64,000 bases of DNA, taken from positions 3,453 through 67,452 of the forward strand of contig JAFABA010000165.1 in assembly GCA_023426265.1 (NCBI GenBank), in the 5' to 3' direction. The DNA is from Bacillota bacterium. Its GTDB lineage: Bacteria > Bacillota > Clostridia > Christensenellales > CAG-138. This document shows, one piece after another, positions 15,973 to 41,739 of this stretch. Position 1 is the first letter of the stretch; every line of letters starts with the position of its first letter. A program made the translations under genes and the position numbers. Under the pieces are notes generated by a model. It was not told the origin of the DNA. It worked only from the letters and a program-made list of their open reading frames with translations, and did no database searches.

Positions 15973-16013
15973 TCGGAATCTGAACACTTATGTCCAGATT
16001 CCGATTTTCTTTT
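15973..16013 (+). terminator. Terminator of the tRNA gene
   Basis: TCGGAATCTG-N12-CAGATTCCGA followed by TTTTCTTTT. Confidence 0.6.
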
Positions 16014-16062
16014 ATTTAGAATTGTCGAGAACAACTAGCTTTTTGCGTGGTATGCGTGTGAA

Positions 16063-17540
16063 ATCAAACTGGACACGAAATAGGAAAACCTCGAAAAGGC
16101 GCATGTAAAAACGGAAATCGGGAACTGATCCGAACCCTATTGTCCATTGTCCCAGTACAGCTTTTCAGCTTTATCAGGCGACTTATATTGTAACGCGGAA
16201 TGCGGCCGTTCGGCATTGTAGAATTTCATATAGTCATCGAGGCAACGCAACATATCCGCCGCCGAACGGTATTTATGTCGATAGAGTTCCTCCTTTTTGA
16301 GAATTGAAAAAAAGGCTTCGCATACAGCATTGTCATGAGGCTTGCCAGGACGCGATAGAGATTGTACCACGCTGCTTTGTTTAAGTAACCCTCTGAAGGC
16401 AAATGAAAGATACTGCTTGCCGCGGTCGCTATGAAATATCAAACCGGGTAAAGGCTTCCTTTGTGTGTACGCTTGCTTGAAGGTACCGCAAACAAGCTGT
16501 GTGCTGTTGGTTTTAGAAACTTTATAAGCGACAATTTTTCGTGAGTAAAGGTCAACGATCGCGCAAGTGTAATAATAGCAGTCATGAAATTTGAACGCCG
16601 TAACATCGCTTGCCCATATCTTATTGGGAGCATCTGTTTGAAAGCGTTGCTGCAATATGTTTTTGTTTTCGCCCTTTTCCCATTTCTCATATTCATGCTT
16701 AGCTTGCGGGCTTACGCTATGCAAATCCATTTCCTGCATCAACAATCGCATAAGTTTTGGGCTAACCCGGTAGCCCTGCTCTCGTAACACGGCGGCAATC
16801 TTTCGTGCACCATAAATTTGGCAACTGCCGTCGAAAATCTCCTTGACCATTGGCCGTAGCATTTCCCGCCATTGTGAATTGAGCGATTGATCCCGCCTGT
16901 TTCGCAAAATATGATTATAGAATGTTCCTCGAGGCACCTCTAATGCTTGGCATAATTCATATACGCTGTATTTCTGCCCATGTAGGGCTTCTAGCGCCAT
17001 GAGCCTTTCTTGAAGAGGTGAATCTACATTGCAATCAACAGTTTTTAGGATTTCTAATATGTTTTCGAGTTTTTGTGCATGCCGTTTTACACCGTTATAA
17101 TCTTGAATAGTGATGGCTTTACCATTGTTAGTAACAATTTTATTGTGTTGGCTGATCCATGAATATAAGGTGCTTCGTGCAATTCCCGCCTCTCTGCAAA
17201 TGTGTGCCACGGACTCTCCGCTGTGATAGCGGGTCATTAGCTGCTGCTTGCATTCGGGGGTGTACTTCATGTTACCTCCTATTAGTGAATTATAATATTT
17301 GCCGATATAGAAAGAACCGGCATTATGTTATAATACCAAATGAAGCATAAATAGGCTGTTTGGAAGATGTAGAAAAGCCGCTGCTAGTGATATGAATCTT
17401 TGGCTTAAAATTTATAACCCTAAAAGAAATTAGCGGTCGAAGAATCACTGTGGCCGCTAATCCTACTGTAAATACGCATTGACGGAATATTGGACACTTT
17501 TTAATAGAAATGTCCACTAGTCCGTTAGTCACTTCTATCT
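16063..17540 (-). mobile_element. IS3-family insertion sequence (ends only approximate)
   Basis: Contains the transposase gene. Weakly matching terminal segments are ACTGGACA (about 16066) and the complement of AGTGGACA (about 17530). The inverted repeats could not be defined confidently. Confidence 0.4.
16137..17270 (-). CDS. IS3-family transposase (HTH plus DDE/rve domain in one 377-aa frame)
   Basis: N-terminal HTH (SVAHICREAGIARSTLYSWI), a second HTH (SVYELCQALEVPRGTFYNH), and a DDE core (WASDVT...HSDRGKQY...KPHDNAVCEAFFSILKKE...YNAERPHSAL). Confidence 0.9.
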   Translation of the reverse strand: MKYTPECKQQLMTRYHSGESVAHICREAGIARSTLYSWISQHNKIVTNNGKAITIQDYNGVKRHAQKLENILEILKTVDCNVDSPLQERLMALEALHGQKYSVYELCQALEVPRGTFYNHILRNRRDQSLNSQWREMLRPMVKEIFDGSCQIYGARKIAAVLREQGYRVSPKLMRLLMQEMDLHSVSPQAKHEYEKWEKGENKNILQQRFQTDAPNKIWASDVTAFKFHDCYYYTCAIVDLYSRKIVAYKVSKTNSTQLVCGTFKQAYTQRKPLPGLIFHSDRGKQYLSFAFRGLLKQSSVVQSLSRPGKPHDNAVCEAFFSILKKEELYRHKYRSAADMLRCLDDYMKFYNAERPHSALQYKSPDKAEKLYWDNGQ

Positions 17541-17683
17541 GACTGGTCGTCTGTATAACGCTCCACAAGAAAATGGCGAGAGACTAAAGAATTGGCTTGC
17601 AGCTTTTATCCTTCTTATGTGAGAAACTAGGGCACTAAGGCTCTCATTATTGGGAAGCCTTATAGTTCCCATTTTCCAAACTG

Positions 17684-17822
17684 CGTCAAATTATTACAGT
17701 AAATGATTGTCTTGCTATATACCTTTGGCTTATAATGAGTTAGATGAGATTTCATTTCGATAAAATTACGATTGGATAATACGACGTCTCCTACCCCGCA
17801 TTAAGCGCATAACAGGAAGTCC
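17684..17822 (+). repeat. R1a, a conserved promoter/leader module (copy 1)
   Basis: Direct repeat of 35021..35163. The 34-nt core CGTCAAATTATTACAGTAAATGATTGTCTTGCTA has 2 mismatches between copies. It contains TTGTCT (17707) -18nt- TATAAT (17731) and a TTCG-loop hairpin at 17749..17766. Confidence 0.75.
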
Positions 17823-18103: not shown

Positions 18104-19012
18104 ATGGGCTATTATACAGAAAGACATGGCATGAGAGCGCCGATTGAGCGTACTTCAACAATCACAATTGGAATGTATGCGTTGTTATTTGACTGCTGCA
18201 CAAAATACTATGATAATATCGCATGGAAATATCCTGCAGAATGCCCTGATGGCAATGGATGTTGTGGGTTAGATTACGAGAAATTTAATGCTGCGATGAC
18301 ATTTGAAATACCAACGCTATGCAGGGATCAGCGTGGTATGATTGAAAAGCCACGTAAAGATTATTACGAAAGCGCAGATGGATATGACCAGTATGCGTTA
18401 TTGGATTTAATCGAGTTCATTGCGTCAAATTGCATAGATATCTCATCCCGTTTTTGGCATGGATTTTTTAGGCATGACGATTTAAGCTTTGGGAAAACCC
18501 ATAAAATTTTTAATGAATTCAGATCCGAAATCAATAGCATATTTGAAAAAACCGGGCTGTTGTATACACTTACTCCCAACAAAGTTGTAGAACGCGTAGC
18601 GGAAAACGATCCTCTCTCCGCAGAGGTCGAAACGCAGGTTCAACAAATTTCCGAACCTGGCACACGAGAATTAATGAAAGAAGCAATTCTATTATACAAA
18701 ACTCCGCACCCCTTAGCTCGAAAAGATTCCGTCGAAAAAATTTGGGATGCTTTGGAACGCCTGAAAACCTACTATGCAAACCTCGATAAAAAGGCTTCTG
18801 CCCAAAAAGTCGTTGAAGACATGAGTAATGGACACGCCGAATTTGTGGAACTGCTTGACACGGAGTTTCGCACTCTGACCAAAATCGGAAACAGTTTTAG
18901 AATTCGCCACCACGAAACAGATAAAACTGAAATTAAAGATGATCGCCATTATGATTACTTTTTTAATCGCTGTCTATCGTTGATTGCGTTGGCGGTCCAG
19001 TATTTGCAATAA
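18104..19012 (+). CDS. AbiJ-like abortive-infection protein, paralogue 1 (variable N-terminal domain plus shared C-terminal domain)
   Basis: The N-terminus MGYYTERHGMRAPIE resembles AbiJ N-terminal-domain families. The C-terminal roughly 125 aa are shared with the next gene (EKIWDALERLKTYY, FRIRHHET, YDYFFNRCLSLIAL). Confidence 0.55.
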   Translation: MGYYTERHGMRAPIERTSTITIGMYALLFDCCTKYYDNIAWKYPAECPDGNGCCGLDYEKFNAAMTFEIPTLCRDQRGMIEKPRKDYYESADGYDQYALLDLIEFIASNCIDISSRFWHGFFRHDDLSFGKTHKIFNEFRSEINSIFEKTGLLYTLTPNKVVERVAENDPLSAEVETQVQQISEPGTRELMKEAILLYKTPHPLARKDSVEKIWDALERLKTYYANLDKKASAQKVVEDMSNGHAEFVELLDTEFRTLTKIGNSFRIRHHETDKTEIKDDRHYDYFFNRCLSLIALAVQYLQ

Positions 19013-19030
19013 TGGGAGCTGCTTTCTTAT

Positions 19031-20416
19031 ATGGGACAAATTTCCGAAGTAACAAGGCACGATTTATTTAATGTCATCCAGGAAGGATTTGCAGGGACAG
19101 GGACCATACAGCGTAATACCGCTGACTATGGTTATATTGACGTTGAAGAGGACATTCACATCTATATGCCGTTTTACGGACGGTTAACTGCGATTGAATT
19201 CCTTGAAAGGCTATATCATTTGGAAGATATGCCTTCGACTGATCATCGCTATAAAAATGCCAAGGGTGATATCTATTGTCATACTGTCAGTTTTGATGAT
19301 TGGCCGGAATTTTGGTTCTTGGATGACGAACGGTTTGAGCTGAAAGACGGGGCTGAGGATGAATCTATACTTAAATTCATCTGTGAGATGCTCCACCCTG
19401 CTGTAAGAGAAGAAGACGGTCCTTGGAAGAAGTACTTAATAAAATTTAATGAGTTACTAAAACCGGACTGTTACGAAATATATGCTTCCTATCGCATTTC
19501 GGGTCGTGATATTTATAAAGCCAGAAAATATGTAGAGCAAAATATAGCTTTTGATGAGAGCCACTTGTTTACAGCAAGATATAAGGAGCTAATTCAAACT
19601 GGAAATGGTTATCCAGTAGATAACATCTGCGGTGAAATTGACTTTCATATTAAAAAACGTCTTGCATCTATCATGATCGAGTTTGCAGAGCCCGCCAAGA
19701 TCAAGCCTAACAGATATGATAACTATGAAATAACAACGGACGCGTTACGGCTGGCAATGGAAAGGGTTTTTACTGTCGTCGCATATCCGGCTATAGATTG
19801 GCATACGAACAACGCATTTGGTATTTCATACGAAGATCAACTTGCAAACCTGTTTAACCCATACTTGTTTGATATTATTGAATTACAATTTAATGAGCTT
19901 TCGCGTTCAGAAAAGGCGGACTTTCAGAAAGCGATAAATGCAGCATTTGATAAAGGCGCAGTGGATTTTATCCTTTCTGATAATGGCATGGTTGTTCAGC
20001 AGCTTCAACACGAAGTGTTGGATAATGCCATTGGAGAAGACATTGGCAAGATTAAAGAGCCTGGATTGAGGGAACTTTTAGATGAGGCAATTGTCTTGCA
20101 TCGTCAGCCCCGTGTGTCTGCACATAAAGATGCTGTAGAAAAAATATGGGATGCATTGGAGCGTCTTAAAACATATTATAGATCTCTGGATAAGAGAGAC
20201 TCTGCTTCAAAAGTCATTAATAACATAAGTAGTGGTAAGACTGAATTTGCTACGCTTTTTAACACAGAATTCAAAGCACTAACTGACATAGGCAATAATT
20301 TTAGAATTCGCCATCATGAAACAAATAAAATCGATATTACAAATGCACGGTATTACGACTATTTTTTTAATCGCTGTCTATCACTGATTGCCTTGGTCGT
20401 TCAATATCTGGACTAA
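19031..20416 (+). CDS. AbiJ-like abortive-infection protein, paralogue 2
   Basis: A different N-terminal domain (ISEVTRHDLFNVI...YGRLTAIEFLERLYHLEDMPSTDHRYKNAKGDIYCHTV..DWPEFWFLDDERF...ILKFICEMLHPAVR) with the same C-terminal domain as 18104..19012. Confidence 0.55.
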   Translation: MGQISEVTRHDLFNVIQEGFAGTGTIQRNTADYGYIDVEEDIHIYMPFYGRLTAIEFLERLYHLEDMPSTDHRYKNAKGDIYCHTVSFDDWPEFWFLDDERFELKDGAEDESILKFICEMLHPAVREEDGPWKKYLIKFNELLKPDCYEIYASYRISGRDIYKARKYVEQNIAFDESHLFTARYKELIQTGNGYPVDNICGEIDFHIKKRLASIMIEFAEPAKIKPNRYDNYEITTDALRLAMERVFTVVAYPAIDWHTNNAFGISYEDQLANLFNPYLFDIIELQFNELSRSEKADFQKAINAAFDKGAVDFILSDNGMVVQQLQHEVLDNAIGEDIGKIKEPGLRELLDEAIVLHRQPRVSAHKDAVEKIWDALERLKTYYRSLDKRDSASKVINNISSGKTEFATLFNTEFKALTDIGNNFRIRHHETNKIDITNARYYDYFFNRCLSLIALVVQYLD

Positions 20417-20554
20417 AAGGGGCATGAGCTTTCCTGTTTGCTTATATTAGACAAGCAATATAGTACAATAATGCGCAGTTTTTTTGTTGTGGTATAAAAT
20501 ATAATTTGTCCGAATGAACATTAGATTAATAAGATTGTTTTTTGGGGTGATAAC

Positions 20555-23500
20555 ATGGAGGATATAAAAACTAATGCAGGAGCGTTGCCTTCTAATGCAG
20601 GTGATGATTTTCATCTTTTATGGGCAGCTCAAAAAATATTGGAAATGCTAAAACCAAGTACAACACTCACAGCTGTGACTGTAGAAGGGCCCGTATGGAA
20701 AGACTCAGTTACTACTGATATAGATAATAGTAAGCTATATGCAATTGACTTAGCTGAATATTATGGAGGCACAGATTTTCAAAATGCGTCAAAAATAGTA
20801 TTCTCTCAATTAAAATATAGTACATATATGGGTGACACGGTATGGACTGCTTCAAGTCTATGTCATTCCGACAATAAGAAGAAAGATAATTCGATTATTC
20901 GTAGACTTGCTGATACTTATAAAGAGTATACAGAGAAGAATGTGAATTCCAAGGATAAGCTTGTTGTGAAATTTGTCAGCAATCGTTCCATTTCTGACAA
21001 TTTAAAACAAGGTATAGGAACAGCGAGAGAGCTTTTAGAAACCAAAAGCTATAAGCAAGCCAATAGCCTTATAAAAAATCTTCCTCCTGAATTCACAACT
21101 GACATTGAAAGGATATATAAAGAATCCAGTCTTAGTTCAACAGCATTTTTGAGCTTTATTAATATGCTTGATTTTGAGGATTGTGGTACAACTACTAGAA
21201 GCATTAAAAAGGCAGAAATCATTAAACAACTGGGTAATTGGGGTATAGATAGTTTACAAAATAAATATAACGAAATAATAATGACTATTCGGGATCGAAT
21301 GATGCCCGGTCGAAATGCCAATGTAGCAATGACTAAAGATTTTGTATGTTCTCTGTTTGGCGGTAATTATGCTCGCTTTTTACCTGCTCCCACCAATATT
21401 CCTGCGTTAAAAACACGTTATATTGAAAGGGAATGCATCCGGGACTTAGTAGATATAGTTTTACAACAAGAAAATGCGCCTATATGTGTCCACGCCACAG
21501 CTGGTATAGGGAAGACTACAATTGTAAGTAATATTGAAAAATACCTTCCTGATGGCTCTGCTTTGGTTTTCTATGATTGCTATGGAGGTGGAACATATCT
21601 GCAGCCTTCTGACTCGAGATATGAATGTGATACTGCTATAACCCAGATTTGCAATAGCCTTGCGCTTGAATGTAAAACCGATTTTTTGTTGGAACGCAGA
21701 TTGAAGGATTCCGAGTTCTTTCAAGAGTTATGTTTACGGCTGGAGCGTGCTATAAAACATGTAAAATTATTCTCTGAAAGCGCTATTATATTACTAATTA
21801 TTGATGCTGCTGACAACGGGATATTTGCGGCAAGGCAGAACGAAAGGAATTGTTTTATTGACAAATTACTCAAACAGCCCTTACCATATGGTGTACGGCT
21901 TCTTTTTACATATCGAACAGAACACGCCGATTATTTTAATTTTCCGGAAGGCTCTAAAACTTATGAAGTTCCTGCATTTAATCTTGCGGAAAGCACAGCA
22001 CATATCCAGTCTTTTTATCCTGCCGCGACAGAAAATGAATGTTTAGAATTTCATCGTTTAAGCAAAGGAATACCACGAGTTCAGGCATATTCATTGAAAT
22101 CACAACGAGAAACATTTCTCGAAGTGGTAGAAATGTTGCGTCCATACGGGAAAACTACCGATGATTTACTCCATGATATACTTAAAGAAATATCTCAAAG
22201 ATATGGGGGAGCAAATGAGAAAATTTCATTTGCTTTCGGAGTCCTTATAAATTTGCCTCGCCCGATACCGCTAATAATTGCTGTCAAAATACTTCAGTGT
22301 ACCCCGGAAATGTTGCAGAGTTTAAGTGTAGACTGTTCCTTTGGCCTTTATATTGAAAATGATTTCATTTACTTTAATGATGAAGATTTTGAAACATTTT
22401 TACGGGATAAATATTGCGATAATTTAAAAGCTGTCAGTGCTATAACGGACTATATGTATCAGCACCGGCACCAAGATGCTTACTGCGCAAAACATGTACA
22501 TAGTTTTCTTGCTAAACAGCCTGACATATCTAAGCTTCTAAATATATCGTTAAATGAATCAATAGATGAATCACTTGTGGATATTACAGAAGCTAGTAGG
22601 ATTATGGTCTCGCGAATTAAAGCCACTTTAAGTATTCCGGTTATAAAAACCCAAGAATACTGGAAAGAATCTTTTCAGTTGATATATAAAATCATTGATT
22701 TTTCGAAAAGTGATGAAGCGATCAATAAACTAATACAAAGCAACCCAGAACAGGCGTATTTGTATTGTGATCAGAATACTCTTTTTGAAGTATTTACCAC
22801 TGATAGAAATGATTTTGACAGCTTAGGGAAAGCAGCATTTATCTTTTCAATGAAATCTGAGACAAAGACGAAGGCCCTTTCCTATTTGGATAGCTATCGG
22901 GGTGCTATTAATTATTATTACAGTAAACCTGAAGAAAAACAAAATCCAGTACAAGGGCCTAAATTTGTAGATATTGTCAATATAGCAGAATCACTGCTCA
23001 GGCTCAAAGACGAGGCGTCAATGAAACGCTGGATAACCTCATGGGTTAGTAGAAAGCTTCAGGCAAACTTATTATTTGAAATTTTGTTCCATCTAATTAA
23101 CCGAAATGATATAAAAACAGCAAACCAAATAGAAAGCCTGCGTTGGTCCGTTTATTGTAAGCTTGCTATAGTAGCTGCCTATTTAAAATGCAAAAAAACA
23201 CCACCAATTAATTTGGTCGAATATCTTAGTAATGTGTTTAATAAAATGCAAACATTAAATTTTACTAATCTTAATAAAGATCATTTTATTCTGTTCCTTG
23301 AATATCTTTGCAAAGATAATACAAATAGAGGTTTGCTCCTTAAAATTATATCAAAGTACCATATTAACTATCGTGTTTCATACCTACCTTACATTCAAGG
23401 AGATGATGAACAAGAACTAGATTGCAATTTAAGATTCTACGTTTTGGAAAAGATATTAAGGGATGAAAAAACTTATTCTGAAGATTTTTGTGATAAGGAT

Positions 23501-26500
23501 AGTCTGCTGAAGGATAAACGATTTACACAGAAAGAAATTGATGAACGAGTAAAAGATATAAGAAAAGTCTATGACTTTCTACTCCCTGCATATATTTATC
23601 GAATTCAAATAATATTAAGAGTTAATAGCGAAGCTACAGAGAAGCTTTATAATAATTGCTTGGTAAAATTAGATCGATTGTATTGGAGCGATCTCGATAA
23701 TCAAAAATCTGGAAGCATTCGTCTTTATTTATTAGCCCTATCTGATGCTGTTTTGAATACGGTTACAACGGATTCCCAAGCAATAAATCAGAATCTTACG
23801 AAAATAGCGAAAGCTACAAAAATATATCGTGATACAAAATTTGCCTTAGCGGACTTATGCTCATATGATCATCGTTCGCAACAATTTGCTTTAGAAATGC
23901 TAAAAGCGATATCTGATGAACTAATTCAACATCCTATATCTGCTATGGAATTATCAGAGGCATATATTAAATGTACTCAGATTGGTCAAAAAGTTGAGTT
24001 AAATGTTGGCCAAATATACTTTAAAAAAGCACTCCAAGCTGCAAAAGGATTGGATTACGAATCATATCGCAAGCTTGAACTTTTTAACGTCTTGTCTAAC
24101 GTTGCTGCTGATGGAAAACATCTTTCAAACGTAGAATTTTCCCATGAATTTGTACGTTTAGCTGAAGATTATTATCGAAAAATGGGCGATTCGAAGAACT
24201 TCCCATATAAAGAGGTTTTTGAAACTGCGACAATATTATGTCCAGAGAATATTTTTTCTATAATGTGCCGGATAGATGATCGTAATGATTGGGATCATTT
24301 TTCCTTACCTGAAAGTGCTTTTTATGTGTTATCTGTTTTGCTGGAAAGAGATATTTATTGCCCTGATATTATATCATCATTGTCGACCATTTTACTTCCA
24401 GAACAGCCGTCTGATTATAATAATCTAGCTAAAAAGATACTACAACATCTTATGAAAGCACCTATTTTTGTTCGCCAAAAGAGTTTAGACAATCTAATTT
24501 CTGATACCTTATACAATGTACCTTTAATTTATAAAGATACATTGGCAAAAGATATTACATCTTACATTACTGAGTATGGAATATCTGGTTATAGAAACAG
24601 CCAAGAGATAAAAGCTTTGTATGATTTTCTTCGCTCTATTGATGTGGAAACGAAGAAAAATCAAATAGAAAGTAAAACAACAGAATTACCCGTTACAGAT
24701 ATAGATATTAAGACTTGCATTATATCCGATTATTTACAATTAATAGGCTATTTAAAAGTGCTAGATATGGATAATCAAGTGATATTTGTCGATTCATGGC
24801 TCGCTGATACTTTGCCGGAAGATTATGTTTCAAGGGCAACCATAATAATAGAAGCATGCTTAAATGGGGCATATTCTATTGAGGCATCAAAAATAATGAA
24901 TGTTTTTATAAAATATATAAGCAAATGGTGCGTATGGCCAACAATAGAAACTTGGAGAAATGGTATTCAGAGAAAAATATTTATAGATCATATGGAAAAG
25001 ATACTAAGTTCCTATCATGATTATTATAATAAGTTAATCAATATTTTTAACGTTCAAGAATTTGATATTCGCGCATTTTTTATAGAATACTTGATATCAA
25101 AAGATAATATTTCAAGTGATTATATCATTGAAATATTAAAAAAATTATCTTCAACTCTTTCTGCCAGTTATGCTGAAGAAGCTTTAAAGTGGTGTATCTC
25201 AACAGAAATTCCTTCAATACATCCACTATCGGGCGATCAACCATATTCCAATAGCTTTTCTCAAATTGATGCGGATTTACTGCCGATTTGCAAGTTGCTA
25301 TGGAGGATGTTGGGGCATCCAGATAAAAAATATCGATGGATTGCTGCACATATAATACGGAACCTATATTCATGTGGGCACTCAAAAATTATAGAGTATT
25401 TCACTACTTTGTATGATGCTCCATTTGATTTGCGATATATGGATAGGAATAATTTCTTTTTTATTGAGTCCGCTAAAGTATATTTCTTAGCTGTATGTCT
25501 TCGCATTTTTAGTAAGGAACCAAAAGGCGGAGTGCCCTTTTATTGCTTCTTTAAAGAAATTGCGTGCGCTGGCCAAACCACTCACGCATTACAAAGAAGG
25601 TTAGCGAAAAATATTAGCCTAAAAATTGCTGAAGTAAATTATTCTGGTGATATTGAACAGATATTGATATCTGACGAATTAAAGCAAAGAAAAATAAAAG
25701 AATCTCCGAGATACGCAAGAGCAAGTTTCTCATCAACTCAAAAACTTCGTTTTCATTTTGATTACATGGATACCCTTCCTTATTGGTATAATGATGTTGC
25801 AGACATCTTTTGTCTTATGCAGGAAGATGTTGCGAGAGACTGTGACGACTATATTCAACAATTTGGTATTGATAATACTAAGACACAAACATGGCAAAAT
25901 AAGTACTTGCATTATAATAGATATCGCAATCGAAATATTAACAATAGTCATGGCTGCTTACCAGAAGTTGAAACATTGGAGAAATATGCTGAGTGGCATG
26001 CAATGTTTTATGTTGCTGACCAATATCGTCGCACCTTGCCCTATTCGGATGATTCTTATAAAAACTACCATGATTGGCTTGATTCATATCTTCCTGGTTA
26101 TCGGGGATATTGGAGTTGTGAGTATCGTGACCATGTCCCATTCGTTCCATTTTTATGGGAGTTTAAAAAATACAAGAATCCCCAAAATGACCATGAATAT
26201 ATAATTCAACATAATCTAGCTACTTCACTAATCATGAATGGTGATTATATAGTTACATATTTGTATTATCACTCTGCCTTCGACCAAAGCAATCAAAGTG
26301 TCAAAATAAAAAGTGCATTAATCAATGAGGAAGATATTTCTAGGTTAATTAGGGAACTTGAGAATCTACATAACATATTTGAGGACTATTATTTTGAACC
26401 GAACCGTGAAGTACGTAAATATCTTAAAAAGGCTGCCGTGATAATTTGGCCATTACATATAAATTTAGATTCTTTAAGTGATAACAGGCTTGACCAGCAT

Positions 26501-26908
26501 GACCCATTTGCAAAAGATGTATATACGGATATCTATTCTTTTTCGCAGGATGTATTGGTTAATTGCGGATATGAATTGAATGTAGAGTTACTTTCGCTTC
26601 CTACAGAAAATAAGAATTTTCCTCTGCATATAGCTAAATGGAGTGAGCCGAGTGAAGAAGGCGGATATACAAAACAAGGAACTTATGGCAGTATCGCAGA
26701 AATAAAGGTCGACCTACTCCTGAAATTTCTTAATAGTACAAATAAAGCTCTTATCTTTGAATATGGCATAGCTTTTGAGGATGCGACTTATCACTTTTAT
26801 GGAACACCAAGCAAAGCAGCTAAAGAAAAAGGTGTATTTATTATTCATTCAAATGGCAGAACAGAATCGCATGTATTAAAACGAGGTTCAGATGTTGGTT
26901 ATGAGTAA
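20555..26908 (+). CDS. Giant STAND-type NTPase (Avs/AVAST-like): N-terminal PD-(D/E)xK (Cap4/DUF4297-like) nuclease domain, P-loop NTPase, roughly 1500-aa helical C-terminal region
   Basis: N-terminal GDDFHLLWAAQKILEML...YAIDLAEYYGG...VFSQLKYS. Walker A is HATAGIGKTT (nt 21494..21520) and Walker B is IILLIIDAADNG (D at 21803). The long alpha-helical tail has no recognised domain. Confidence 0.7.
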   Translation: MEDIKTNAGALPSNAGDDFHLLWAAQKILEMLKPSTTLTAVTVEGPVWKDSVTTDIDNSKLYAIDLAEYYGGTDFQNASKIVFSQLKYSTYMGDTVWTASSLCHSDNKKKDNSIIRRLADTYKEYTEKNVNSKDKLVVKFVSNRSISDNLKQGIGTARELLETKSYKQANSLIKNLPPEFTTDIERIYKESSLSSTAFLSFINMLDFEDCGTTTRSIKKAEIIKQLGNWGIDSLQNKYNEIIMTIRDRMMPGRNANVAMTKDFVCSLFGGNYARFLPAPTNIPALKTRYIERECIRDLVDIVLQQENAPICVHATAGIGKTTIVSNIEKYLPDGSALVFYDCYGGGTYLQPSDSRYECDTAITQICNSLALECKTDFLLERRLKDSEFFQELCLRLERAIKHVKLFSESAIILLIIDAADNGIFAARQNERNCFIDKLLKQPLPYGVRLLFTYRTEHADYFNFPEGSKTYEVPAFNLAESTAHIQSFYPAATENECLEFHRLSKGIPRVQAYSLKSQRETFLEVVEMLRPYGKTTDDLLHDILKEISQRYGGANEKISFAFGVLINLPRPIPLIIAVKILQCTPEMLQSLSVDCSFGLYIENDFIYFNDEDFETFLRDKYCDNLKAVSAITDYMYQHRHQDAYCAKHVHSFLAKQPDISKLLNISLNESIDESLVDITEASRIMVSRIKATLSIPVIKTQEYWKESFQLIYKIIDFSKSDEAINKLIQSNPEQAYLYCDQNTLFEVFTTDRNDFDSLGKAAFIFSMKSETKTKALSYLDSYRGAINYYYSKPEEKQNPVQGPKFVDIVNIAESLLRLKDEASMKRWITSWVSRKLQANLLFEILFHLINRNDIKTANQIESLRWSVYCKLAIVAAYLKCKKTPPINLVEYLSNVFNKMQTLNFTNLNKDHFILFLEYLCKDNTNRGLLLKIISKYHINYRVSYLPYIQGDDEQELDCNLRFYVLEKILRDEKTYSEDFCDKDSLLKDKRFTQKEIDERVKDIRKVYDFLLPAYIYRIQIILRVNSEATEKLYNNCLVKLDRLYWSDLDNQKSGSIRLYLLALSDAVLNTVTTDSQAINQNLTKIAKATKIYRDTKFALADLCSYDHRSQQFALEMLKAISDELIQHPISAMELSEAYIKCTQIGQKVELNVGQIYFKKALQAAKGLDYESYRKLELFNVLSNVAADGKHLSNVEFSHEFVRLAEDYYRKMGDSKNFPYKEVFETATILCPENIFSIMCRIDDRNDWDHFSLPESAFYVLSVLLERDIYCPDIISSLSTILLPEQPSDYNNLAKKILQHLMKAPIFVRQKSLDNLISDTLYNVPLIYKDTLAKDITSYITEYGISGYRNSQEIKALYDFLRSIDVETKKNQIESKTTELPVTDIDIKTCIISDYLQLIGYLKVLDMDNQVIFVDSWLADTLPEDYVSRATIIIEACLNGAYSIEASKIMNVFIKYISKWCVWPTIETWRNGIQRKIFIDHMEKILSSYHDYYNKLINIFNVQEFDIRAFFIEYLISKDNISSDYIIEILKKLSSTLSASYAEEALKWCISTEIPSIHPLSGDQPYSNSFSQIDADLLPICKLLWRMLGHPDKKYRWIAAHIIRNLYSCGHSKIIEYFTTLYDAPFDLRYMDRNNFFFIESAKVYFLAVCLRIFSKEPKGGVPFYCFFKEIACAGQTTHALQRRLAKNISLKIAEVNYSGDIEQILISDELKQRKIKESPRYARASFSSTQKLRFHFDYMDTLPYWYNDVADIFCLMQEDVARDCDDYIQQFGIDNTKTQTWQNKYLHYNRYRNRNINNSHGCLPEVETLEKYAEWHAMFYVADQYRRTLPYSDDSYKNYHDWLDSYLPGYRGYWSCEYRDHVPFVPFLWEFKKYKNPQNDHEYIIQHNLATSLIMNGDYIVTYLYYHSAFDQSNQSVKIKSALINEEDISRLIRELENLHNIFEDYYFEPNREVRKYLKKAAVIIWPLHINLDSLSDNRLDQHDPFAKDVYTDIYSFSQDVLVNCGYELNVELLSLPTENKNFPLHIAKWSEPSEEGGYTKQGTYGSIAEIKVDLLLKFLNSTNKALIFEYGIAFEDATYHFYGTPSKAAKEKGVFIIHSNGRTESHVLKRGSDVGYE

Positions 26909-33310: not shown

Positions 33311-33361
33311 CCTTCGGCTTTTTTCTCAAGTCCAAAATATCTAAATTGACAACGAAATCCA
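33311..33361. repeat. R2a, the cassette 3' module (copy 1), followed by a hairpin at 33366..33411
   Basis: CCTTCGGCTTTTTTCTCAAGTCCAAAATATCTAAATTGACAACGAAATCCA compared with 41647..41700: a 3-nt indel and 3 substitutions by eye. It is followed by AGACAAACCTG-N20-CAGGTTTGTCT plus a T-run. Confidence 0.75.
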
Positions 33362-33536
33362 CGGTAGACAAACCTGTTTCTATTGTCGCATAGAAGCAGG
33401 TTTGTCTTTTTGTCTGCCCTAAAACCCCTCAAATAGGGCTTTTTGTTGCTCAGCTCATTGAAAGCGTCTCATCTAACATGCAAATAGTCATGTTTGAAAA
33501 CCCTCATATATTCATGTTTAAAAAGGAGAAAGCGTA

Positions 33537-34181
33537 ATGAAAGGATTGGAGATCGAATCATTCGGGCGTATTTGCTATGGCTTCACCAAAGGCGAGGCCG
33601 AACAAGTGTGCATCAACAAACAGCAAGCGGAAGTCGTATCCATGCTTTTTGAAAAGTATCTCGAAGGCTTCAGCCTGGGTCGGTTAAGCGAATTGCTGCA
33701 AAGCAATCATATTCCCTCCCCTTCCGGCAGGGAGACCTGGACGCGGACAACAATAGATAAGCTTCTATCCAACCAAAGCTATGTTCCTCACATTATCCCT
33801 TGGGATCAATTCTACAGGGTGCAAGATGAGAAGATGCGGCGATGCAATCTGGAATATGGCGAAACAGACGTACAGAGGAAATCTACGCGATACAATTCAA
33901 CGCATATATTGAGTGGGCTTTTGGTTTGTGCTGAATGCGGTGCAAATTACCGCAGGATCACCCGCCCTACTGGTGAAATCGTGTGGCGTTGTGCCAATCG
34001 GGTAGAGCATGGCAGCAAGATCTGCAAGCATTCCCCTTCTATCACTGAAACGGATGCTTTATCGTTCCTCCAGAATAACCTGCATATTACGCAGATCAAT
34101 GCGGAGATGATCCGGAATAAAGTATCTGCAATTTATGTAACTGACGATGAAGTATGCGCATCAAGATTAATAATGCTTTGA
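33537..34181 (+). pseudogene. Large serine recombinase lacking the N-terminal catalytic (resolvase) domain
   Basis: Only the recombinase domain (QAEVVSMLFEKYLEGFSLGRLSELLQSNHIPSPSGRETWTRTTIDKLLSNQSY) and the zinc ribbon (LLVCAECGANYRR...WRCANR) are present. No catalytic Ser/Arg domain is encoded upstream. Confidence 0.7.
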
Positions 34182-34239
34182 GAGCATCACTATAGGGTAT
34201 AATATTCATGCATTCAACTTTTTCGGAAGGACTTACGGC

Positions 34240-34884
34240 ATGAATATTACAGAAGATGAGCTTCAATTATATTGGATGTTTCTCCGAAAGGAAAGGAGCG
34301 CCAGACGCACGTTAAATAAAGGCTTTATTTCAAAAGAAATCTATACGGAGGCAATGAAGCGTGCGATTCAAGATTTAGAGCTAAAGGAGCCTATTGAGCA
34401 ACTCCTGGATGAAGATTATTTGACATATCTGGCGCACAACTGCGATTTTAATGAGGAAAGTGCATCTATCATCTCTCCGCGTGCAAAAGCGCGGGCAGAG
34501 AAGATGGGAGATGTTAATCCTAGATATGCATGCTTGACCGATATAGCAAAAAGACGAAACAGTAGTGTTTTGCCCAGCTATAGTATACAGAGTTGGTTTC
34601 GAAGCCACGGTACAATAGAATTTCTGACGCTTTGGGAGCAAGGGAATAACCCAAACTATAACCCGAAAGAATTCGAGATATCAGAAATAGAGGCGTCCAA
34701 ATCAACCCTGACGTTGAAAAATTGGATTGCACGGACTGGTGCCATTGGTATTACTTCCATGCAAGGCAGGTATGGAGGTACTTATGCCCACCCTGCTATT
34801 GCGTTGGATTTCGAAGCTTGGCTTTCACCAAAGTTCCGACTGACGCTTTTCCAGGGACTGCATATTGTTGAACAGGTAGGTTAA
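34240..34884 (+). CDS. KilA-N domain-containing protein
   Basis: The C-terminal half SWFRSHGTIEFLTLWEQGNNPNYNPKEFE...LTLKNWIARTGAIGITSMQGRYGGTYAHPAIALDFEAWLSPKFRL is the typical KilA-N/Bro-N signature. Confidence 0.75.
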   Translation: MNITEDELQLYWMFLRKERSARRTLNKGFISKEIYTEAMKRAIQDLELKEPIEQLLDEDYLTYLAHNCDFNEESASIISPRAKARAEKMGDVNPRYACLTDIAKRRNSSVLPSYSIQSWFRSHGTIEFLTLWEQGNNPNYNPKEFEISEIEASKSTLTLKNWIARTGAIGITSMQGRYGGTYAHPAIALDFEAWLSPKFRLTLFQGLHIVEQVG

Positions 34885-35020: not shown

Positions 35021-35163
35021 CGTCAGATTATTACAGTAAATCATTGTCTTGCTAAACACGTTGACTTATAATAATTCATATAAGATTTTGTTTCGACAAA
35101 ATTAACGATTAGGCTAATATACGATGTTCTTTTACGCCCACATTAGGCAATAATGCGAAGCCC
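35021..35163 (+). repeat. R1b, a conserved promoter/leader module (copy 2)
   Basis: Direct repeat of 17684..17822. It contains TTGTCT (35044) -17nt- TATAAT (35067) and the hairpin ATTTTGT-TTCG-ACAAAAT (35085..35102), which carries compensatory changes relative to copy 1. Confidence 0.75.
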
Positions 35164-35369: not shown

Positions 35370-36509
35370 ATGCCAACAATGCGTAATATAAAGGCAGATG
35401 TTGAGCGCCTTTTATGGGGTGTCTCTGCTGGACGTTGCGAATTCGACGGATGCAACAAACCACTTTATCGCCATGAAGCTACTGGAACCATTGACAACTA
35501 TGCCGAGAAGGCTCACATCCACGCTGTTAGTCCAGGTGGGGCACGATATGATCCCGAAGCTGAAGACTTTAAGAACAACTTTGAAAATCTGATGCTGGTC
35601 TGTCCGCAGTGCCATATCACAATCGACCGGAATGAAGAGCAATATAAACCTGCCGTTCTGTTTGAAATGAAGCGTAAACATGAACAACGAATTACCACCC
35701 TCACCAATATCGGGGCTAATTTGCACAGCCATATGGTATACTACACCGCAAACCTCGCCGGTACTCACCATTCGGTTAATGACGGGGATGCAAGGAATGC
35801 GTTAGCTTTGTTCGGAAGGTATCCGACTGAAGACTCGCCAATTGATTTAAGCCAAAAGGGTAGTTACGTTGAGGACAGTGAAGTTGGTTTTTATCAAAAC
35901 AATATTCAGAATCTTGATCGAGCAATCAGATCAAGAATTCTCGATGTTATAGAACAAGGTTCAAGTATTGCACTGTTTGCGCTTGCCTCCCAACCACTCT
36001 TAATGTATCTCGGTCGCATACTTAACGACAAATACAACGTAGCAGTGTTTCAGTGCCATCGAAGAGAAAATGATAAATGGAGTTGGGGGCAGCAATACCA
36101 ACCTGTGAAGTTTCTAGTCACGGAGGCGCAGGGAGCAAGCGAATTGAGTCCAGTTGCACTGGTGTTTTCTCTCAGCAGTGATATTGCAGATAATCGTATC
36201 AGGACAGTCCTTGGCGAGAGTGCATCCATCTACATGGTTACTATCGAATCACCTAATCGTCAGTTCGTCGATCATCCATCTGTTATGGATGACTTTGTTG
36301 CGGCAACACGTGAAGTGCTGGAGAGGATTAAGCGTAGGCATGGGAAGAATGTCGATCTGCACATCTTTCCAGCAATGCCCGTTTCGCTGGCGATTCGGTT
36401 TGGAATGGACTATATGCCCAAGGCGGACAATAAATTGATCATCTATGACGAGCGATCGGATAGAGGATTTGTTTTTGCCCTCAGCATAGGAGGATCAAAT
36501 GACGAATGA
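35370..36509 (+). CDS. cap5: CBASS effector Cap5 (HNH endonuclease fused to a SAVED sensor domain)
   Basis: HNH signature: EKAHIHAVSPGG...NLMLVCPQCHITID. The C-terminal roughly 230 aa are SAVED-like (IALFALASQPLLMYLGRIL...LHIFPAMPVSLAIRFG). The gene is adjacent to and overlaps a CD-NTase gene. Confidence 0.8.
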   Translation: MPTMRNIKADVERLLWGVSAGRCEFDGCNKPLYRHEATGTIDNYAEKAHIHAVSPGGARYDPEAEDFKNNFENLMLVCPQCHITIDRNEEQYKPAVLFEMKRKHEQRITTLTNIGANLHSHMVYYTANLAGTHHSVNDGDARNALALFGRYPTEDSPIDLSQKGSYVEDSEVGFYQNNIQNLDRAIRSRILDVIEQGSSIALFALASQPLLMYLGRILNDKYNVAVFQCHRRENDKWSWGQQYQPVKFLVTEAQGASELSPVALVFSLSSDIADNRIRTVLGESASIYMVTIESPNRQFVDHPSVMDDFVAATREVLERIKRRHGKNVDLHIFPAMPVSLAIRFGMDYMPKADNKLIIYDERSDRGFVFALSIGGSNDE

Positions 36510-37941
36510 TCAACTCAATGACCTATATAGGCGAATAGCTGACGAACTGGACATATCCGATGCTCACTTCAAACGAGCCGAAACAAGCTATAACGCGCTT
36601 GGTGAGTATATCGGAAATCACAGCAATTATCCCATTGAGGTTTACACGCAAGGCTCGTTCAGACTTGGTACTGTCATTCGTCCGCTCAGTGATGAAGATG
36701 AGTATGACTTGGACCTAATCTGCGAGATTGCCAACGGTCAATCACTTACGGCCGCCGCCATAAAAACTGGAATTGGTAAAATTTTTAGGGAATCTGATCG
36801 ATATTCTGCAAAACTTGAGGAAAAGAAACGTTGTTGGCGTATTGAGTATGCGGATGAGGCTCAGTTCCACATGGATATTACGCCGGCTAAACCTAATGTC
36901 GAGATGGAACCGTCCATTCTCGTAACAAATAAGAGCGATAATGGTAGCTATTCATTTAGTCCAAGTAATCCTAGAGGGTATGCCGACTGGTTTGATCAAA
37001 GAAAACTTATTGCGAGTGTTGCAAAAAGTGCAGTGTTTGAATCGGCCGCTGCATCAGTTGAGCCGGTTAAACCTAATCGTGTAAAGTTACCTTTGCAGCG
37101 GGCGATACAGATACTCAAACGGCATCGGGATAAAATGTTTGAGACCGATCCTGACGTCAAACCGATTTCGATCATAATAACGACGCTTGCCGCACAAGCA
37201 TACTGCGGTGAGCTTGGCGTATACGATGCTGTGAAAGGCATTCTCGAGACTTTGCCCCAATACATCCAAAGAAATTCAAACGGATATAGAGTTCCGAACC
37301 CATCGAACCCTGCCGAGAACTTTGCAGACAAATGGAATAGTGAACCAAGAAAAGCAAAGGCCTTTTTTGACTGGATAGCACAGGCAAGAAATGACCTTGT
37401 AGTTACCGTGTTATCGATTGGTGATGACTACACTGTTATTGAAGATACATTGGGAGCGGGCGTGGTCGGCCGTGCACTGGTTGGAATAAATCAAGTTCGC
37501 CATGATTCACAACTGGCACTAACTGCATACAGTAATCCAAGCATACGGACTGCATTAAGTGTGCCGCACCGACAACGGCCTCTATTCAGAGTACCTAAAG
37601 CCATTATGCTAGGTATTCAGGCCACCGTCTCCCAGAACGGCCAGCAGTACACTTATAAAAACAATAGCCAGCCTATTCCTAAGCATTGTTCTATAGACTT
37701 TAGCTTAATTGTTTCACCAGCTATACTTAAAGGAGGCTATACGGTATGGTGGCAGGTAGTCAATACTGGCGATGAAGCGAGAGCACAAAACGGACTAAGG
37801 GGTGGATTTGAGAAAAAAGTTAATACCACCCAGCATCATGAAACTTCGCTATATGCAGGGACACATTATGTACAAGCGTTCCTTACAAAGCGGGGTAGTT
37901 GTATCGCGAAATCCAGTGAGTTCATTGTAAATATTTTGTAA
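36499..37941 (+). CDS. CD-NTase (SMODS-type cGAS/DncV-like nucleotidyltransferase) with a C-terminal AGS-C-like domain
   Basis: Catalytic signature QGSFRLGTVIRP...EYDLDLI...FHMDITPA. The C-terminal YTVWWQVVNTGDEARAQNGLRGGF resembles the AGS-C sensor domain. AGGAGG lies 5 nt upstream, and the gene overlaps cap5 by 11 nt. Confidence 0.8.
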   Translation: MTNDQLNDLYRRIADELDISDAHFKRAETSYNALGEYIGNHSNYPIEVYTQGSFRLGTVIRPLSDEDEYDLDLICEIANGQSLTAAAIKTGIGKIFRESDRYSAKLEEKKRCWRIEYADEAQFHMDITPAKPNVEMEPSILVTNKSDNGSYSFSPSNPRGYADWFDQRKLIASVAKSAVFESAAASVEPVKPNRVKLPLQRAIQILKRHRDKMFETDPDVKPISIIITTLAAQAYCGELGVYDAVKGILETLPQYIQRNSNGYRVPNPSNPAENFADKWNSEPRKAKAFFDWIAQARNDLVVTVLSIGDDYTVIEDTLGAGVVGRALVGINQVRHDSQLALTAYSNPSIRTALSVPHRQRPLFRVPKAIMLGIQATVSQNGQQYTYKNNSQPIPKHCSIDFSLIVSPAILKGGYTVWWQVVNTGDEARAQNGLRGGFEKKVNTTQHHETSLYAGTHYVQAFLTKRGSCIAKSSEFIVNIL

Positions 37942-41646: not shown

Positions 41647-41700
41647 CCTTCAGCTTTTTTCTTCTCAAGTCTAAAATATCTAAATTGTCAACGAAATCCA
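41647..41700. repeat. R2b, the cassette 3' module (copy 2)
   Basis: CCTTCAGCTTTTTTCTTCTCAAGTCTAAAATATCTAAATTGTCAACGAAATCCA, the homologue of 33311..33361. It lies just upstream (on the minus strand) of the AbrB-type gene. Confidence 0.75.
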
Positions 41701-41739
41701 AATAGAGCAGGCACCCAAATGGGTGCCTGCTCTATTTGG
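41698..41739. terminator. Perfect 42-bp palindrome (bidirectional terminator-like) at the right island edge
   Basis: CCAAATAGAGCAGGCACCCA-AA-TGGGTGCCTGCTCTATTTGG. The two 20-nt arms are perfectly complementary. Confidence 0.6.

What the first reader, a model, noticed from the sequence alone, without database searches (positions are those of the whole stretch)
17684..17822. Conserved promoter/leader module (R1) heads two unrelated defence operons, with hairpin covariation
R1a (17684..17822) and R1b (35021..35163) are direct repeats with a 34-nt core carrying 2 mismatches, then looser similarity. They sit 280 and 205 nt upstream of the AbiJ-like operon and the CBASS operon respectively.

Both copies carry TTGTCT-17/18nt-TATAAT and, about 12 nt after the -10 box, a 7-bp hairpin with a TTCG loop. 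The second stem pair changes from A-T in R1a to G-C in R1b, which is compensatory. The neighbouring C/A mismatch in R1a becomes T-A in R1b.

This looks like a portable expression or regulatory leader, or a small RNA, shared by different cargo.
Basis: seen in the sequence. Interest (0 to 1): 0.7.

Follow-up and report, generated by a model that had tools for sequence, protein, structure and literature searches.

The report
Shared promoter module heading defence islands

Summary
The repeat is real. R1a (17684-17822) and R1b (35021-35163) share a 34-nt core with 2 mismatches and about 78% identity over about 125 nt. No shuffle of the window reproduced the match.

Both copies carry TTGTCT-N17/18-TATAAT. 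I found two more copies in other Bacillota MAGs:
- R1d (L008) lies right after a tRNA-Ala and heads a dGTPase defence gene.
- R1c (L015/L039) lies after a housekeeping methyltransferase gene at the edge of a low-GC island, but faces a convergent gene.

Across the four copies both promoter hexamers are invariant, and 18 of the 23 bases upstream are too. The spacer and flanks vary, which is the pattern expected of a selected sigma-A promoter.

R1a, R1c and R1d belong to a larger unit of about 330 nt: a strong terminator hairpin, about 200 nt, then R1, sitting at the island's left edge. R1b is a promoter-only fragment inside a second, KilA-N-headed island.

The TTCG hairpin is not conserved (dG +0.1, -2.2, +1.2 and +3.4 kcal/mol). 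Its covariation is not significant. There is no Rfam match and no excess folding energy.

I found no evidence for an IS, MITE or invertible switch. The family is rare and restricted to one lineage.

Verdict: a plausible portable promoter/leader, a new member of a known kind, of moderate interest.

The parts
17684..17822 (+). Detectable homology runs from about 17660 to 17854.
   Evidence: The nhmmer envelope is 17665-17846. BLAST to L015 and L008 covers 17660-17812.
17707..17736 (+). Sigma-A-type promoter of R1a: -35 TTGTCT (17707-17712), 18-nt spacer, -10 TATAAT (17731-17736). The inferred start of transcription is about 17743.
   Evidence: This is the only promoter-like site on either strand in 17200-18200. 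Both hexamers are invariant in all four copies. The start of transcription is inferred, not shown.
17749..17766 (+). It is not supported as a structure.
   Evidence: dG is +0.1 kcal/mol. It is absent from the minimum-energy fold. Covariation is not significant.
17461..17683 (+). Upstream part of the island-head unit 'M', shared with L008 and L015 but not with R1b. It begins with a strong hairpin at 17478-17529.
   Evidence: The nhmmer match has E = 2.5e-41. See the alignment. The hairpin folds at -20.5 kcal/mol, z = -4.0.
35021..35163 (+). R1b. Detectable homology runs from about 35002 to 35190. It lacks the M upstream part.
35044..35072 (+). Sigma-A-type promoter of R1b: -35 TTGTCT (35044-35049), 17-nt spacer, -10 TATAAT (35067-35072). 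The inferred start of transcription is about 35079.
   Evidence: No terminator-like site lies between it and 35370.
35085..35102 (+). It overlaps the motif TTTGTCGAA at 35092-35100 on the minus strand, which contains the Spo0A '0A box' consensus TGTCGAA.
   Evidence: dG is -2.2 kcal/mol. This is the only TTTGTCGAA in the 64-kb window. The 0A-box consensus is taken from PMC2731898.
15885..16017 (+). tRNA-Thr (15885-15960) and the strong terminator hairpin directly after it (15960-16017). Together they mark the left boundary of the low-GC island. The hairpin region resembles the 5' end of unit M.
   Evidence: The hairpin folds at -27.4 kcal/mol, z = -4.7. There is a weak nhmmer match to the 5' end of M.
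16137..17270 (-). IS3-family transposase gene lying between the tRNA and M/R1a. Its inverted repeats were not found.
   Evidence: Pfam rve, rve_3, HTH_21 and HTH_Tnp_1. No terminal repeats were detected.
18104..26908 (+). Cargo downstream of R1a: two PDC-S32/AbiJ-N-terminal-domain proteins (18104-19012 and 19031-20416) and an Avs3-like protein of 2117 aa (20555-26908).
   Evidence: Pfam AbiJ_NTD4 and AbiJ_NTD3. PADLOC PDC-S32 at 1.6e-128 and Avs3a at 1.2e-155.
35370..37941 (+). Cargo downstream of R1b: a CBASS pair made of an HNH-SAVED effector (35370-36509) and a CD-NTase with an AGS-C domain (36499-37941).
   Evidence: Pfam SAVED, SMODS and AGS_C. PADLOC effector at 1.9e-127 and cyclase at 5e-147.
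33537..34884 (+). Gene pair directly upstream of R1b: a recombinase/Zn-ribbon fragment with no resolvase catalytic domain (33537-34181) and a KilA-N protein (34240-34884). This pair forms the head of 'island B'.
   Evidence: Pfam. Homologous pairs head other defence cargo in L028-L030, without R1.
33311..33362 (+). Copy 1 of the D3 direct repeat (54 nt aligned, about 93% identical), marking the left border of island B. It is followed by a strong hairpin at 33363-33418.
41647..41701 (+). Copy 2 of the D3 direct repeat, at the right border of the whole low-GC island. It is followed by a host terminator and the glycerate kinase gene.

Best explanation
R1 is a conserved sigma-A (sigma-70-type) promoter together with the first 75-120 nt of the transcript it starts.

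Proposed layout of the promoter:
- An A/T-rich stretch at the UP-element position (-37 to -59).
- A -35 hexamer, TTGTCT.
- A 17-18-nt spacer.
- A perfect -10 hexamer, TATAAT.

Proposed place in the island. In its full form R1 is the 3' part of an 'island head' of about 330 nt. That head consists of a strong intrinsic terminator, which insulates the island from the upstream tRNA or housekeeping gene, then about 200 nt, then R1 reading into the island. Whatever cargo lies next is transcribed from it:
- PDC-S32/AbiJ-like plus Avs3 behind R1a.
- dGTPase behind R1d in L008.

R1b is a promoter-only fragment of the same unit. It has been recombined into a different island type, headed by KilA-N, where it drives CBASS through a leader of about 290 nt.

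What is shown: the homology, the copy contexts and the position-specific conservation.

What is inferred: promoter activity, the start sites (about 17743 and about 35079), read-through into the operons, and any regulation through the conserved early transcribed block TTTCGAYAAAATT..ACGAC.
For: 1. There are four independent copies in three genomes, with unrelated flanks.
2. Three of the four are co-oriented with, and immediately upstream of, different defence systems: PDC-S32 plus Avs3, CBASS and dGTPase.
3. The conservation profile over the four copies fits a promoter:
   - -35: 6 of 6 positions invariant.
   - -10: 6 of 6 invariant.
   - 23 nt upstream of the -35: 18 of 23 invariant.
   - Spacer: 11 of 18 invariant.
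   - Upstream part of M: only 41-53% identical between the window and the other genomes.
   - Distal leader: about 50% or less.
4. R1a's site is the only promoter-like match on either strand in 17200-18200. No terminator-like site lies between R1 and either start codon.
5. The host uses canonical sigma-A promoters. For example, TTGCAA-N18-TATAAT lies in front of tRNA-Thr (sequence).
6. In L008 and L039 the unit is a sharply bounded 332-nt block, 86% identical. It starts with a terminator hairpin of -23 to -31 kcal/mol, z = -3 to -6.
7. There is no sign of RNA structure, coding potential, dyad symmetry or terminal inverted repeats that would point to another function.
Against: - There is no transcript evidence of any kind.
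- A 10-of-12 promoter match is common by chance: about 2-3 per kb in shuffles. The case therefore rests on conservation in only four sequences, two of which (R1c, R1d) are close relatives.
- R1c faces the 3' end of a convergent 321-aa gene and a type I RM operon. So R1 does not always head an operon.
- The -35 is only 4 of 6 to consensus, and there is no extended -10.
- The long leaders (about 290-360 nt) and the conserved first 100 nt of transcript are unexplained by a plain promoter.
- Three of the four copies lie at an island edge. Selection for a recombination function cannot be excluded.
Confidence: 0.6

Rival explanations
1. R1 and the M unit are the conserved terminal arm of an integrative island: an att-proximal or recombination-proficient sequence. 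Under this reading it is kept because it is needed for integration, excision or homologous cargo exchange. The promoter-like hexamers would be incidental or secondary.
For: - Three of four copies lie within about 350 nt of the island/host junction. R1d is right after tRNA-Ala. R1c is after a RumA-like gene. R1a is after tRNA-Thr with an IS in between.
- The unit has sharp borders in unrelated contexts.
- R1c does not head a co-oriented gene.
- A partial M-like sequence also follows tRNA-Thr directly (E = 0.007).
Against: - R1b is internal to an island and lacks the arm.
- Conservation peaks on the promoter hexamers rather than at the junction. The junction-proximal hairpin region is only 41-47% identical between the window and the other genomes.
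- The core has no dyad symmetry.
- No tRNA 3'-end duplication is present.
- No intact integrase was found in the window island.
Confidence: 0.15
2. R1 has no function of its own. It is a neutral remnant carried along by recent recombination between related islands, and its apparent conservation reflects short divergence time.
For: - Only four copies are known, all in what appear to be related high-GC Bacillota MAGs or metagenomes.
- R1c and R1d are 86% identical over the whole unit, without obvious peaks.
- There are no homologues in phage, plasmid or viral collections.
Against: - Between the window copies and R1c/R1d, identity falls to 41-53% in the adjoining M sequence, while the hexamers stay 100% and the upstream core 78-100%.
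- R1a and R1b, in one genome, are only about 78% identical, so this is not a recent duplication.
- The same fragment is retained in front of three different cargo sets.
Confidence: 0.12
3. R1 encodes a structured cis-regulatory leader or a small RNA. The TTCG hairpin or another fold would control the downstream defence genes.
For: - The first 75-120 nt after the -10 are conserved in front of different genes.
- There is one double (A-T to G-C) change in the proposed stem.
- The 5' UTRs are long.
Against: - Hairpin dG is +0.1, -2.2, +1.2 and +3.4 kcal/mol in the four copies.
- Only 78.6% of cells are paired, and 119 of 500 shuffles reach the observed covariation.
- The RNAalifold consensus is only -4.9 kcal/mol, with a covariation term of -0.44.
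- Single-sequence z-scores are 0.0, -0.1, +0.4 and +1.4.
- No Rfam match lies within R1 even at E up to 5.
- No terminator follows, so a short transcript is not predicted.
- R1c and R1d carry 5-nt and 13-16-nt deletions in this region.
Confidence: 0.08
4. R1 is a miniature mobile element or an invertible promoter switch bounded by short inverted repeats (CGTCAGATTATT ... AATAATsmGAAG).
For: - Imperfect inverted repeats coincide with the edges of R1b (35016-35032 and 35149-35165, 71% complementary) and of R1c (13 nt, 85% complementary).
- For R1c the match is nominally unusual, reached by 26 of 2000 shuffles.
- One Logan contig ends inside R1c.
Against: - The same test is not significant for R1a (302 of 2000), R1b (279 of 2000) or R1d (1979 of 2000).
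- Among 185,579 species-representative genomes only two matched beyond the seed pattern, each at a single site. That does not fit a multi-copy element.
- All three copies that have the M part are in the same orientation relative to it.
- No target-site duplication is visible by eye.
- No invertase with a catalytic domain lies nearby.
Confidence: 0.05

Closest known systems
Integron expression platform (Pc promoter next to attI, driving promoter-less cassettes)
   Same: A fixed promoter-bearing platform sits at one end of a variable array. It supplies transcription to interchangeable cargo, and in published cases that cargo includes anti-phage systems (from my own knowledge of the integron literature).
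   Different: There is no IntI tyrosine recombinase and no attI/attC-like palindromic sites. The cargo units are whole multi-gene systems with long leaders of their own. Membership is not met.
Defence hotspots of mobile islands and satellites (P2/P4 hotspots, ICE/SXT hotspots, tRNA-adjacent defence islands)
   Same: - A low-GC island sits next to a tRNA.
- It is packed with defence systems: PDC-S32, Avs3, a Mokosh-like helicase, PDC-S56 and CBASS.
- Conserved non-coding or edge sequence flanks variable cargo.
   Different: The conserved element here is a non-coding unit of about 330 nt, not flanking core genes. No integrase or phage/satellite genes were found. The sequence has no match in phage, plasmid or IMG/VR collections.
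Canonical Bacillota sigma-A promoters with an upstream A/T-rich (UP-like) element
   Same: The hexamers, the spacing and the A/T-rich (17 of 23) upstream block are at the expected positions. The hexamers are invariant among homologues.
   Different: Activity has not been tested. The -35 is 4 of 6 to consensus and there is no TG extended -10. The conserved block downstream of the -10 is not part of a standard promoter.
Spo0A-controlled promoters with 0A boxes (for example the phi29 early promoters, PMC2731898)
   Same: R1b, R1c and R1d carry an exact TGTCGAA (TTTGTCGAA) on the minus strand, about 7-19 nt downstream of the inferred start. That is a position from which a bound protein could repress. 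It is the only TTTGTCGAA in the 64-kb window.
   Different: - R1a has TATCGAA.
- The neighbouring box-like repeat (TACGACG) is 5 nt away, not the 3 nt described for Spo0A dimers.
- Spo0A in these hosts and its binding are untested.
- This is a resemblance found after the fact and should be treated as a lead only.

Membership tests
Sigma-70/sigma-A promoter | -35 and -10 hexamers close to TTGACA/TATAAT, separated by 16-18 nt | tested here: met
   TTGTCT-N18-TATAAT at 17707-17736 and TTGTCT-N17-TATAAT at 35044-35072. Each matches 10 of 12 positions.
Sigma-70/sigma-A promoter | Hexamers conserved among homologues more than the spacer and flanks | tested here: met
   Both hexamers are 6 of 6 invariant in four copies. 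The spacer is 11 of 18. The flanks are 41-53% identical between genomes. This rests on four sequences only.
Sigma-70/sigma-A promoter | Experimentally mapped transcription start and promoter activity | not testable with these tools
   No transcript data are available. The predicted starts are about 17743 and about 35079.
   119 of 500 shuffles reach the observed covariation. Three of seven pairs are broken in one or more copies. The alifold energy is -4.9 kcal/mol.
   z-scores are 0.01, -0.14, 0.38 and 1.44. Hairpin dG is +0.1, -2.2, +1.2 and +3.4 kcal/mol.
   No Rfam match lies within R1, even at E up to 5.
IS element or MITE end | Terminal inverted repeats bounding the unit | tested here: not met
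   Weak inverted repeats are seen only in some copies. They are not significant in three of four.
IS element or MITE end | Multiple dispersed copies per genome, or similarity to known mobile-element ends | tested here: not met
   The two other genomes each matched at a single site in a whole-genome scan. There are no matches in the plasmid, phage or IMG/VR collections. The window's own full genome could not be scanned.
Integron platform | Adjacent intI tyrosine recombinase, with attI/attC recombination sites flanking the cassettes | tested here: not met
   No Phage_integrase-type domain was found in the island's ORFs. R1 has no dyad-symmetric site.
tRNA-targeting integrative island arm (attL) | Direct repeat of the tRNA 3' end at the distal island border, and an integrase gene | tested here: not met
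   The tRNA-Thr 3' 24-mer occurs once in the window, even allowing 3 mismatches. No intact integrase was found.
tRNA-targeting integrative island arm (attL) | Position at the island/host junction | tested here: inconclusive
   Three of four copies lie within about 350 nt of the junction. R1b is internal.
Spo0A-regulated promoter | 0A box TGTCGAA near the promoter | tested here: inconclusive
   An exact box is present in R1b, R1c and R1d, with one mismatch in R1a. The tandem box with a 3-bp spacer described in PMC2731898 is not present. Binding cannot be tested here.

The most novel reading that the evidence does not exclude
R1 may be more than a promoter. It could be a dedicated, regulator-controlled expression platform that a lineage of spore-forming Bacillota passes between defence islands. 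In that reading, unrelated immune systems (Avs/PDC-S32, CBASS, dGTPase) would be placed under one common switch. The conserved early transcribed block, with its 0A-box-like repeats TTCGACA-N5-TACGACG, would be the operator. Immunity expression would then be tied to cell state, for example Spo0A~P and entry into sporulation, or to infection.
Probability: 0.1. Interest if true: 0.7.

Novelty: new member of a known kind. Interest (0 to 1): 0.35.

Why it matters
If R1 is an active promoter, it shows how defence islands in these little-studied Bacillota solve the expression problem for horizontally acquired immune systems. A short insulated cassette of terminator plus promoter at the island head, or a fragment of it, is reused for whichever cargo is dropped behind it.

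That would have two practical uses:
- It would give a handle for finding new cargo, by looking downstream of R1/M copies.
- It would provide a native promoter for expressing defence systems from this lineage.

If the conserved leader block turns out to be an operator, several unrelated defence systems would share one regulatory input. That is of wider interest for how immunity is coordinated.

As it stands, the element is rare: four copies in three genomes. Its function is inferred from sequence alone.

Tried and rejected
- **Searches for more copies.**
  - An exact-pattern scan of 185,579 species genomes gave 11 hits, of which only L008 and L015 extend beyond the seed.
  - The JGI metagenome scan gave 4 hits, all chance matches of 20-28 nt.
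  - Two IMG/VR scans gave 0 and 6 chance hits.
  - BLASTN against the phage and plasmid collections found nothing.
- **Does R1 travel with its neighbouring genes?**
  - Cap5/CBASS homologues at 65-71% identity (L031-L038) have no R1-like or M-like sequence by nhmmer.
  - The same holds for KilA-N homologues at 41-45% identity (L028-L030).
  - It also holds for homologues of the L015 321-aa protein (L042, L043).
- **A third, weaker copy in the window.** None was found (nhmmer --max).
- **Leader peptide.** A short frame (M/I-x-x-R/H/C-F-D-K-I...) is open in all four copies. However, R1b and R1d have no canonical start codon. In R1c the ATG begins 3 nt after the -10, upstream of any plausible start of transcription. 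I rejected this by inspecting the alignment.
- **Recombinase site.** There is no dyad symmetry of at least 9 of 14 in the core.
- **MITE or inverton.** The inverted repeats are not consistent between copies. A contig break inside R1c does not coincide with them.
- **IS3 borders.** I found no inverted repeats and no plasmid-database match. Where the IS ends relative to M is therefore unresolved.
- **tRNA 3'-end duplication** that would mark a classical att site: none.
- **Host taxonomy** from cluster names: no names were returned.

Full report
**1. Checking the observation**

Positions 17684-17717 and 35021-35054 differ at two places, and similarity continues with small indels for about 125 nt at about 78% identity.
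- A 28-nt core pattern, allowing three mismatches, finds only these two sites in the window. None of 100 dinucleotide-preserving shuffles gave any match.
- The consensus scan finds TTGTCT-N18-TATAAT at 17707-17736 and TTGTCT-N17-TATAAT at 35044-35072.
- In 17200-18200 the R1a site is the only promoter-like match on either strand. No terminator-like site lies between either R1 and the first start codon (18104 and 35370).
- The hairpins lie at 17749-17766 and 35085-35102, and the base changes are as described.

**2. Genomic context**

- The window holds a low-GC island of about 26 kb (32-47% GC against 51-61% in the flanks), from about 16.0 to 41.9 kb. It starts right after a tRNA-Thr at 15885-15960.
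- It is a genuine defence island. In order it contains:
  - an IS3-family transposase gene (minus strand);
  - R1a;
  - two PDC-S32/AbiJ-N-terminal-domain proteins;
  - an Avs3-like protein of 2117 aa;
  - a 174-aa ORF;
  - a Mokosh MkoC-like helicase;
  - PDC-S56;
  - a recombinase/Zn-ribbon fragment and a KilA-N protein;
  - R1b;
  - an HNH-SAVED effector and a CD-NTase (CBASS);
  - a 194-aa ORF;
  - a GNAT-domain protein;
  - an ASCH-domain protein;
  - a MazE-like gene.
- The same island is present unchanged in three metagenome assemblies. These add no variation.

**3. Homologues elsewhere**

- R1b has no BLASTN match in 50,697 phage or 72,556 plasmid records, and R1a/M has none in the plasmid records.
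- There is no true match in IMG/VR or in the JGI metagenome contigs.
- A 19-position pattern (18 specified bases) run over one genome from each of 185,579 species gave 11 hits. Nine match only the seed. Two extend over 136-158 nt at 73-83% identity.
- Both true homologues are in high-GC 'Bacillota bacterium' MAGs, L008 and L015.
- L008: R1d lies about 215 nt after a tRNA-Ala. It is followed within about 45-110 nt by a dGTPase defence gene that an IS fragment has truncated.
- L015 (longer versions L039 and L040): R1c lies after a RumA-like methyltransferase gene, at the edge of a low-GC island. The next gene, of 321 aa, and the type I RM operon behind it are on the other strand and converge on R1c.

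**4. R1a is part of a larger unit**

- L008 and L039 share one sharply bounded 332-nt block at 86% identity, with unrelated flanks.
- The block begins with a strong hairpin followed by a U-run: -23 to -31 kcal/mol, z = -3 to -6. About 200 nt follow, and then R1.
- Window 17461-17683 is homologous to that upstream part (nhmmer E = 2.5e-41; alignment). It has its own hairpin at 17478-17529.
- The sequence directly after tRNA-Thr (15960-16017) is another such terminator. It matches the start of the unit weakly.
- R1b shares only the promoter-proximal 150-185 nt.

**5. Conservation pattern**

- Over the four copies the -35 and -10 hexamers are invariant (6 of 6 each).
- The 23 nt upstream of the -35, which is the UP-element position and is 74% A/T, are 18 of 23 invariant.
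- The spacer is 11 of 18 invariant. The 35 alignment columns after the -10 are 19 of 35 invariant.
- Between the window and the other genomes, the upstream part of the unit is only 41-53% identical.
- Conservation therefore peaks on the promoter elements. This is the main argument for a functional promoter rather than a neutral remnant or a junction sequence.

**6. The hairpin and RNA ideas**

- Forced into the proposed 7-bp stem, the four copies give +0.1, -2.2, +1.2 and +3.4 kcal/mol.
- On the four-sequence alignment, 78.6% of cells pair and one pair shows a double change. 119 of 500 shuffles do as well.
- RNAalifold finds only a -4.9 kcal/mol consensus, with a covariation term of -0.44.
- The leaders fold no better than shuffles, with z from 0.0 to +1.4.
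- Rfam gives nothing within R1, even at E up to 5.
- R1c and R1d lack 5 nt and 13-16 nt that R1a and R1b have in this region.
- I conclude that the hairpin is not a conserved feature.

**7. Other readings tested**

- The core has no dyad symmetry.
- Short inverted repeats coincide with the edges of R1b and R1c. They are not significant in three of four copies. All copies that have the upstream part are in one orientation. The two other genomes each matched at a single site. This argues against a MITE, an IS end or an inverton.
- The tRNA-Thr 3' end is not duplicated in the window, and no integrase with a catalytic domain is present. A classical tRNA-att arm is therefore not supported.
- Even so, three of four copies sit at an island edge, and I keep that as the main rival.
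- R1 does not accompany CBASS or the KilA-N module elsewhere.

**8. A lead**

- The invariant block after the -10, TTTCGAYAAAATT, reads TTTGTCGAA on the other strand in R1b, R1c and R1d. That contains the Spo0A 0A-box consensus TGTCGAA (PMC2731898).
- It is the only TTTGTCGAA in the window. TGTCGAA itself occurs only twice, against about 7 expected.
- A second box-like repeat (TACGACG) follows after 5 nt.
- R1a has a mismatch, and the spacing differs from the 3 bp described for Spo0A dimers.
- I found this after the fact and could not test it.

**9. Verdict**

- R1 is real and more than chance. It is best read as a sigma-A promoter with the start of its leader.
- It forms the business end of an insulated 'island head' unit. 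A fragment of it has also been recruited inside a second island.
- It is reused in front of three different defence systems in three genomes.
- This fits a known kind of arrangement, in which a conserved expression or edge module flanks variable island cargo. As a sequence family it is new.
- It is rare, restricted to one lineage, and functionally untested.
- Confidence in the promoter reading is 0.6. Interest is 0.35.

Noticed in passing
window 33537-34884; L028 7554-8663; L029 7561-8657; L030 348-1678: A gene pair recurs at 41-45% identity in other genomes and is fused in P0013. It consists of a 'Recombinase/Zn-ribbon' fragment that lacks the resolvase catalytic domain, plus a KilA-N protein. 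In L028 and L029 it is followed within 20-40 nt by different defence-like cargo; in L030 a 77-aa ORF overlaps the KilA-N gene and the cargo starts about 290 nt on.
- L028: TIR/QueC-like plus DprA-like genes.
- L029: an MmeI-like type IIG RM.
- L030: an AIPR/Abi-like gene.
- The window: CBASS.
It looks like the head of a family of small defence islands that has no obvious catalytic recombinase. A paper on serine recombinases as defence markers (PMC13552941) does not mention KilA-N.
   Followed up: partly
window 33311-33362 and 41647-41701; L029 11691-11718: A 54-nt direct repeat (D3, core AAAATATCTAAATTG) brackets the KilA-N/CBASS part of the island. Its core also sits at the right end of the cargo in L029. 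The reverse complement of the core (CAATTTAGATATTTT), and related TTAGATGTC/GACATCTAA motifs, occur in L043. The related motif GACATCTAAATTAGTCAC also follows the gene next to a serine recombinase in L042. This could be an att-like site.
   Followed up: partly
window 15960-16017, 17478-17529, 33363-18; L008 about 2565-2510; L015 about 1345-1290; L028 about 7350-7395: Every island left border starts with a strong hairpin, in most cases followed by a U-run (z = -3 to -7). It lies directly after a tRNA or housekeeping gene. The stems differ in sequence between copies while the flanks and loop (ATGAAC..., ATGTCCAG) are similar, so the stems appear to covary. This is better evidence for a selected hairpin than the TTCG one. 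Note: the third window range above should read 33363-33418.
   Followed up: partly
window 35092-35100 (minus strand); same position in L008 and L015: An exact Spo0A 0A-box consensus, TGTCGAA (TTTGTCGAA), lies just downstream of the predicted start of transcription in three of four R1 copies. It is the only such 9-mer in the 64-kb window.
   Followed up: partly
window 18722-19019 and 20126-20423: A 298-nt direct repeat at 71% identity lies within the two adjacent AbiJ-like genes. It reflects a shared C-terminal PDC-S32 domain: the PADLOC profile positions 131-300 match residues 291-460 of the second protein.
   Followed up: no
window 16137-17270 (minus strand): An IS3-family transposase is encoded as a single 377-aa ORF between tRNA-Thr and R1a. 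No terminal inverted repeats were detectable and there was no match in the plasmid collection, so its borders are undefined.
   Followed up: partly
window 17388-17411: A 24-nt stretch, TGATATGAATCTTTGGCTTAAAAT, is 79% identical to the spacer and -10 of R1a (17713-17736). It may be a remnant of another R1-like promoter, or it may be chance.
   Followed up: no
L008 about 2745-2700: A partial 5' copy of the tRNA-Ala (GGGGCACTGGCACAGCTGGTAGAGCG...) lies about 65 nt upstream of the intact tRNA-Ala that precedes R1d.
   Followed up: no
L039 10001-10966; L042 6960-8939: The 321-aa protein of unknown function that converges on R1c has many homologues. In L042 its homologue sits next to a 325-aa serine recombinase (Resolvase plus Recombinase domains). 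It may therefore belong to a mobility module rather than to defence.
   Followed up: no
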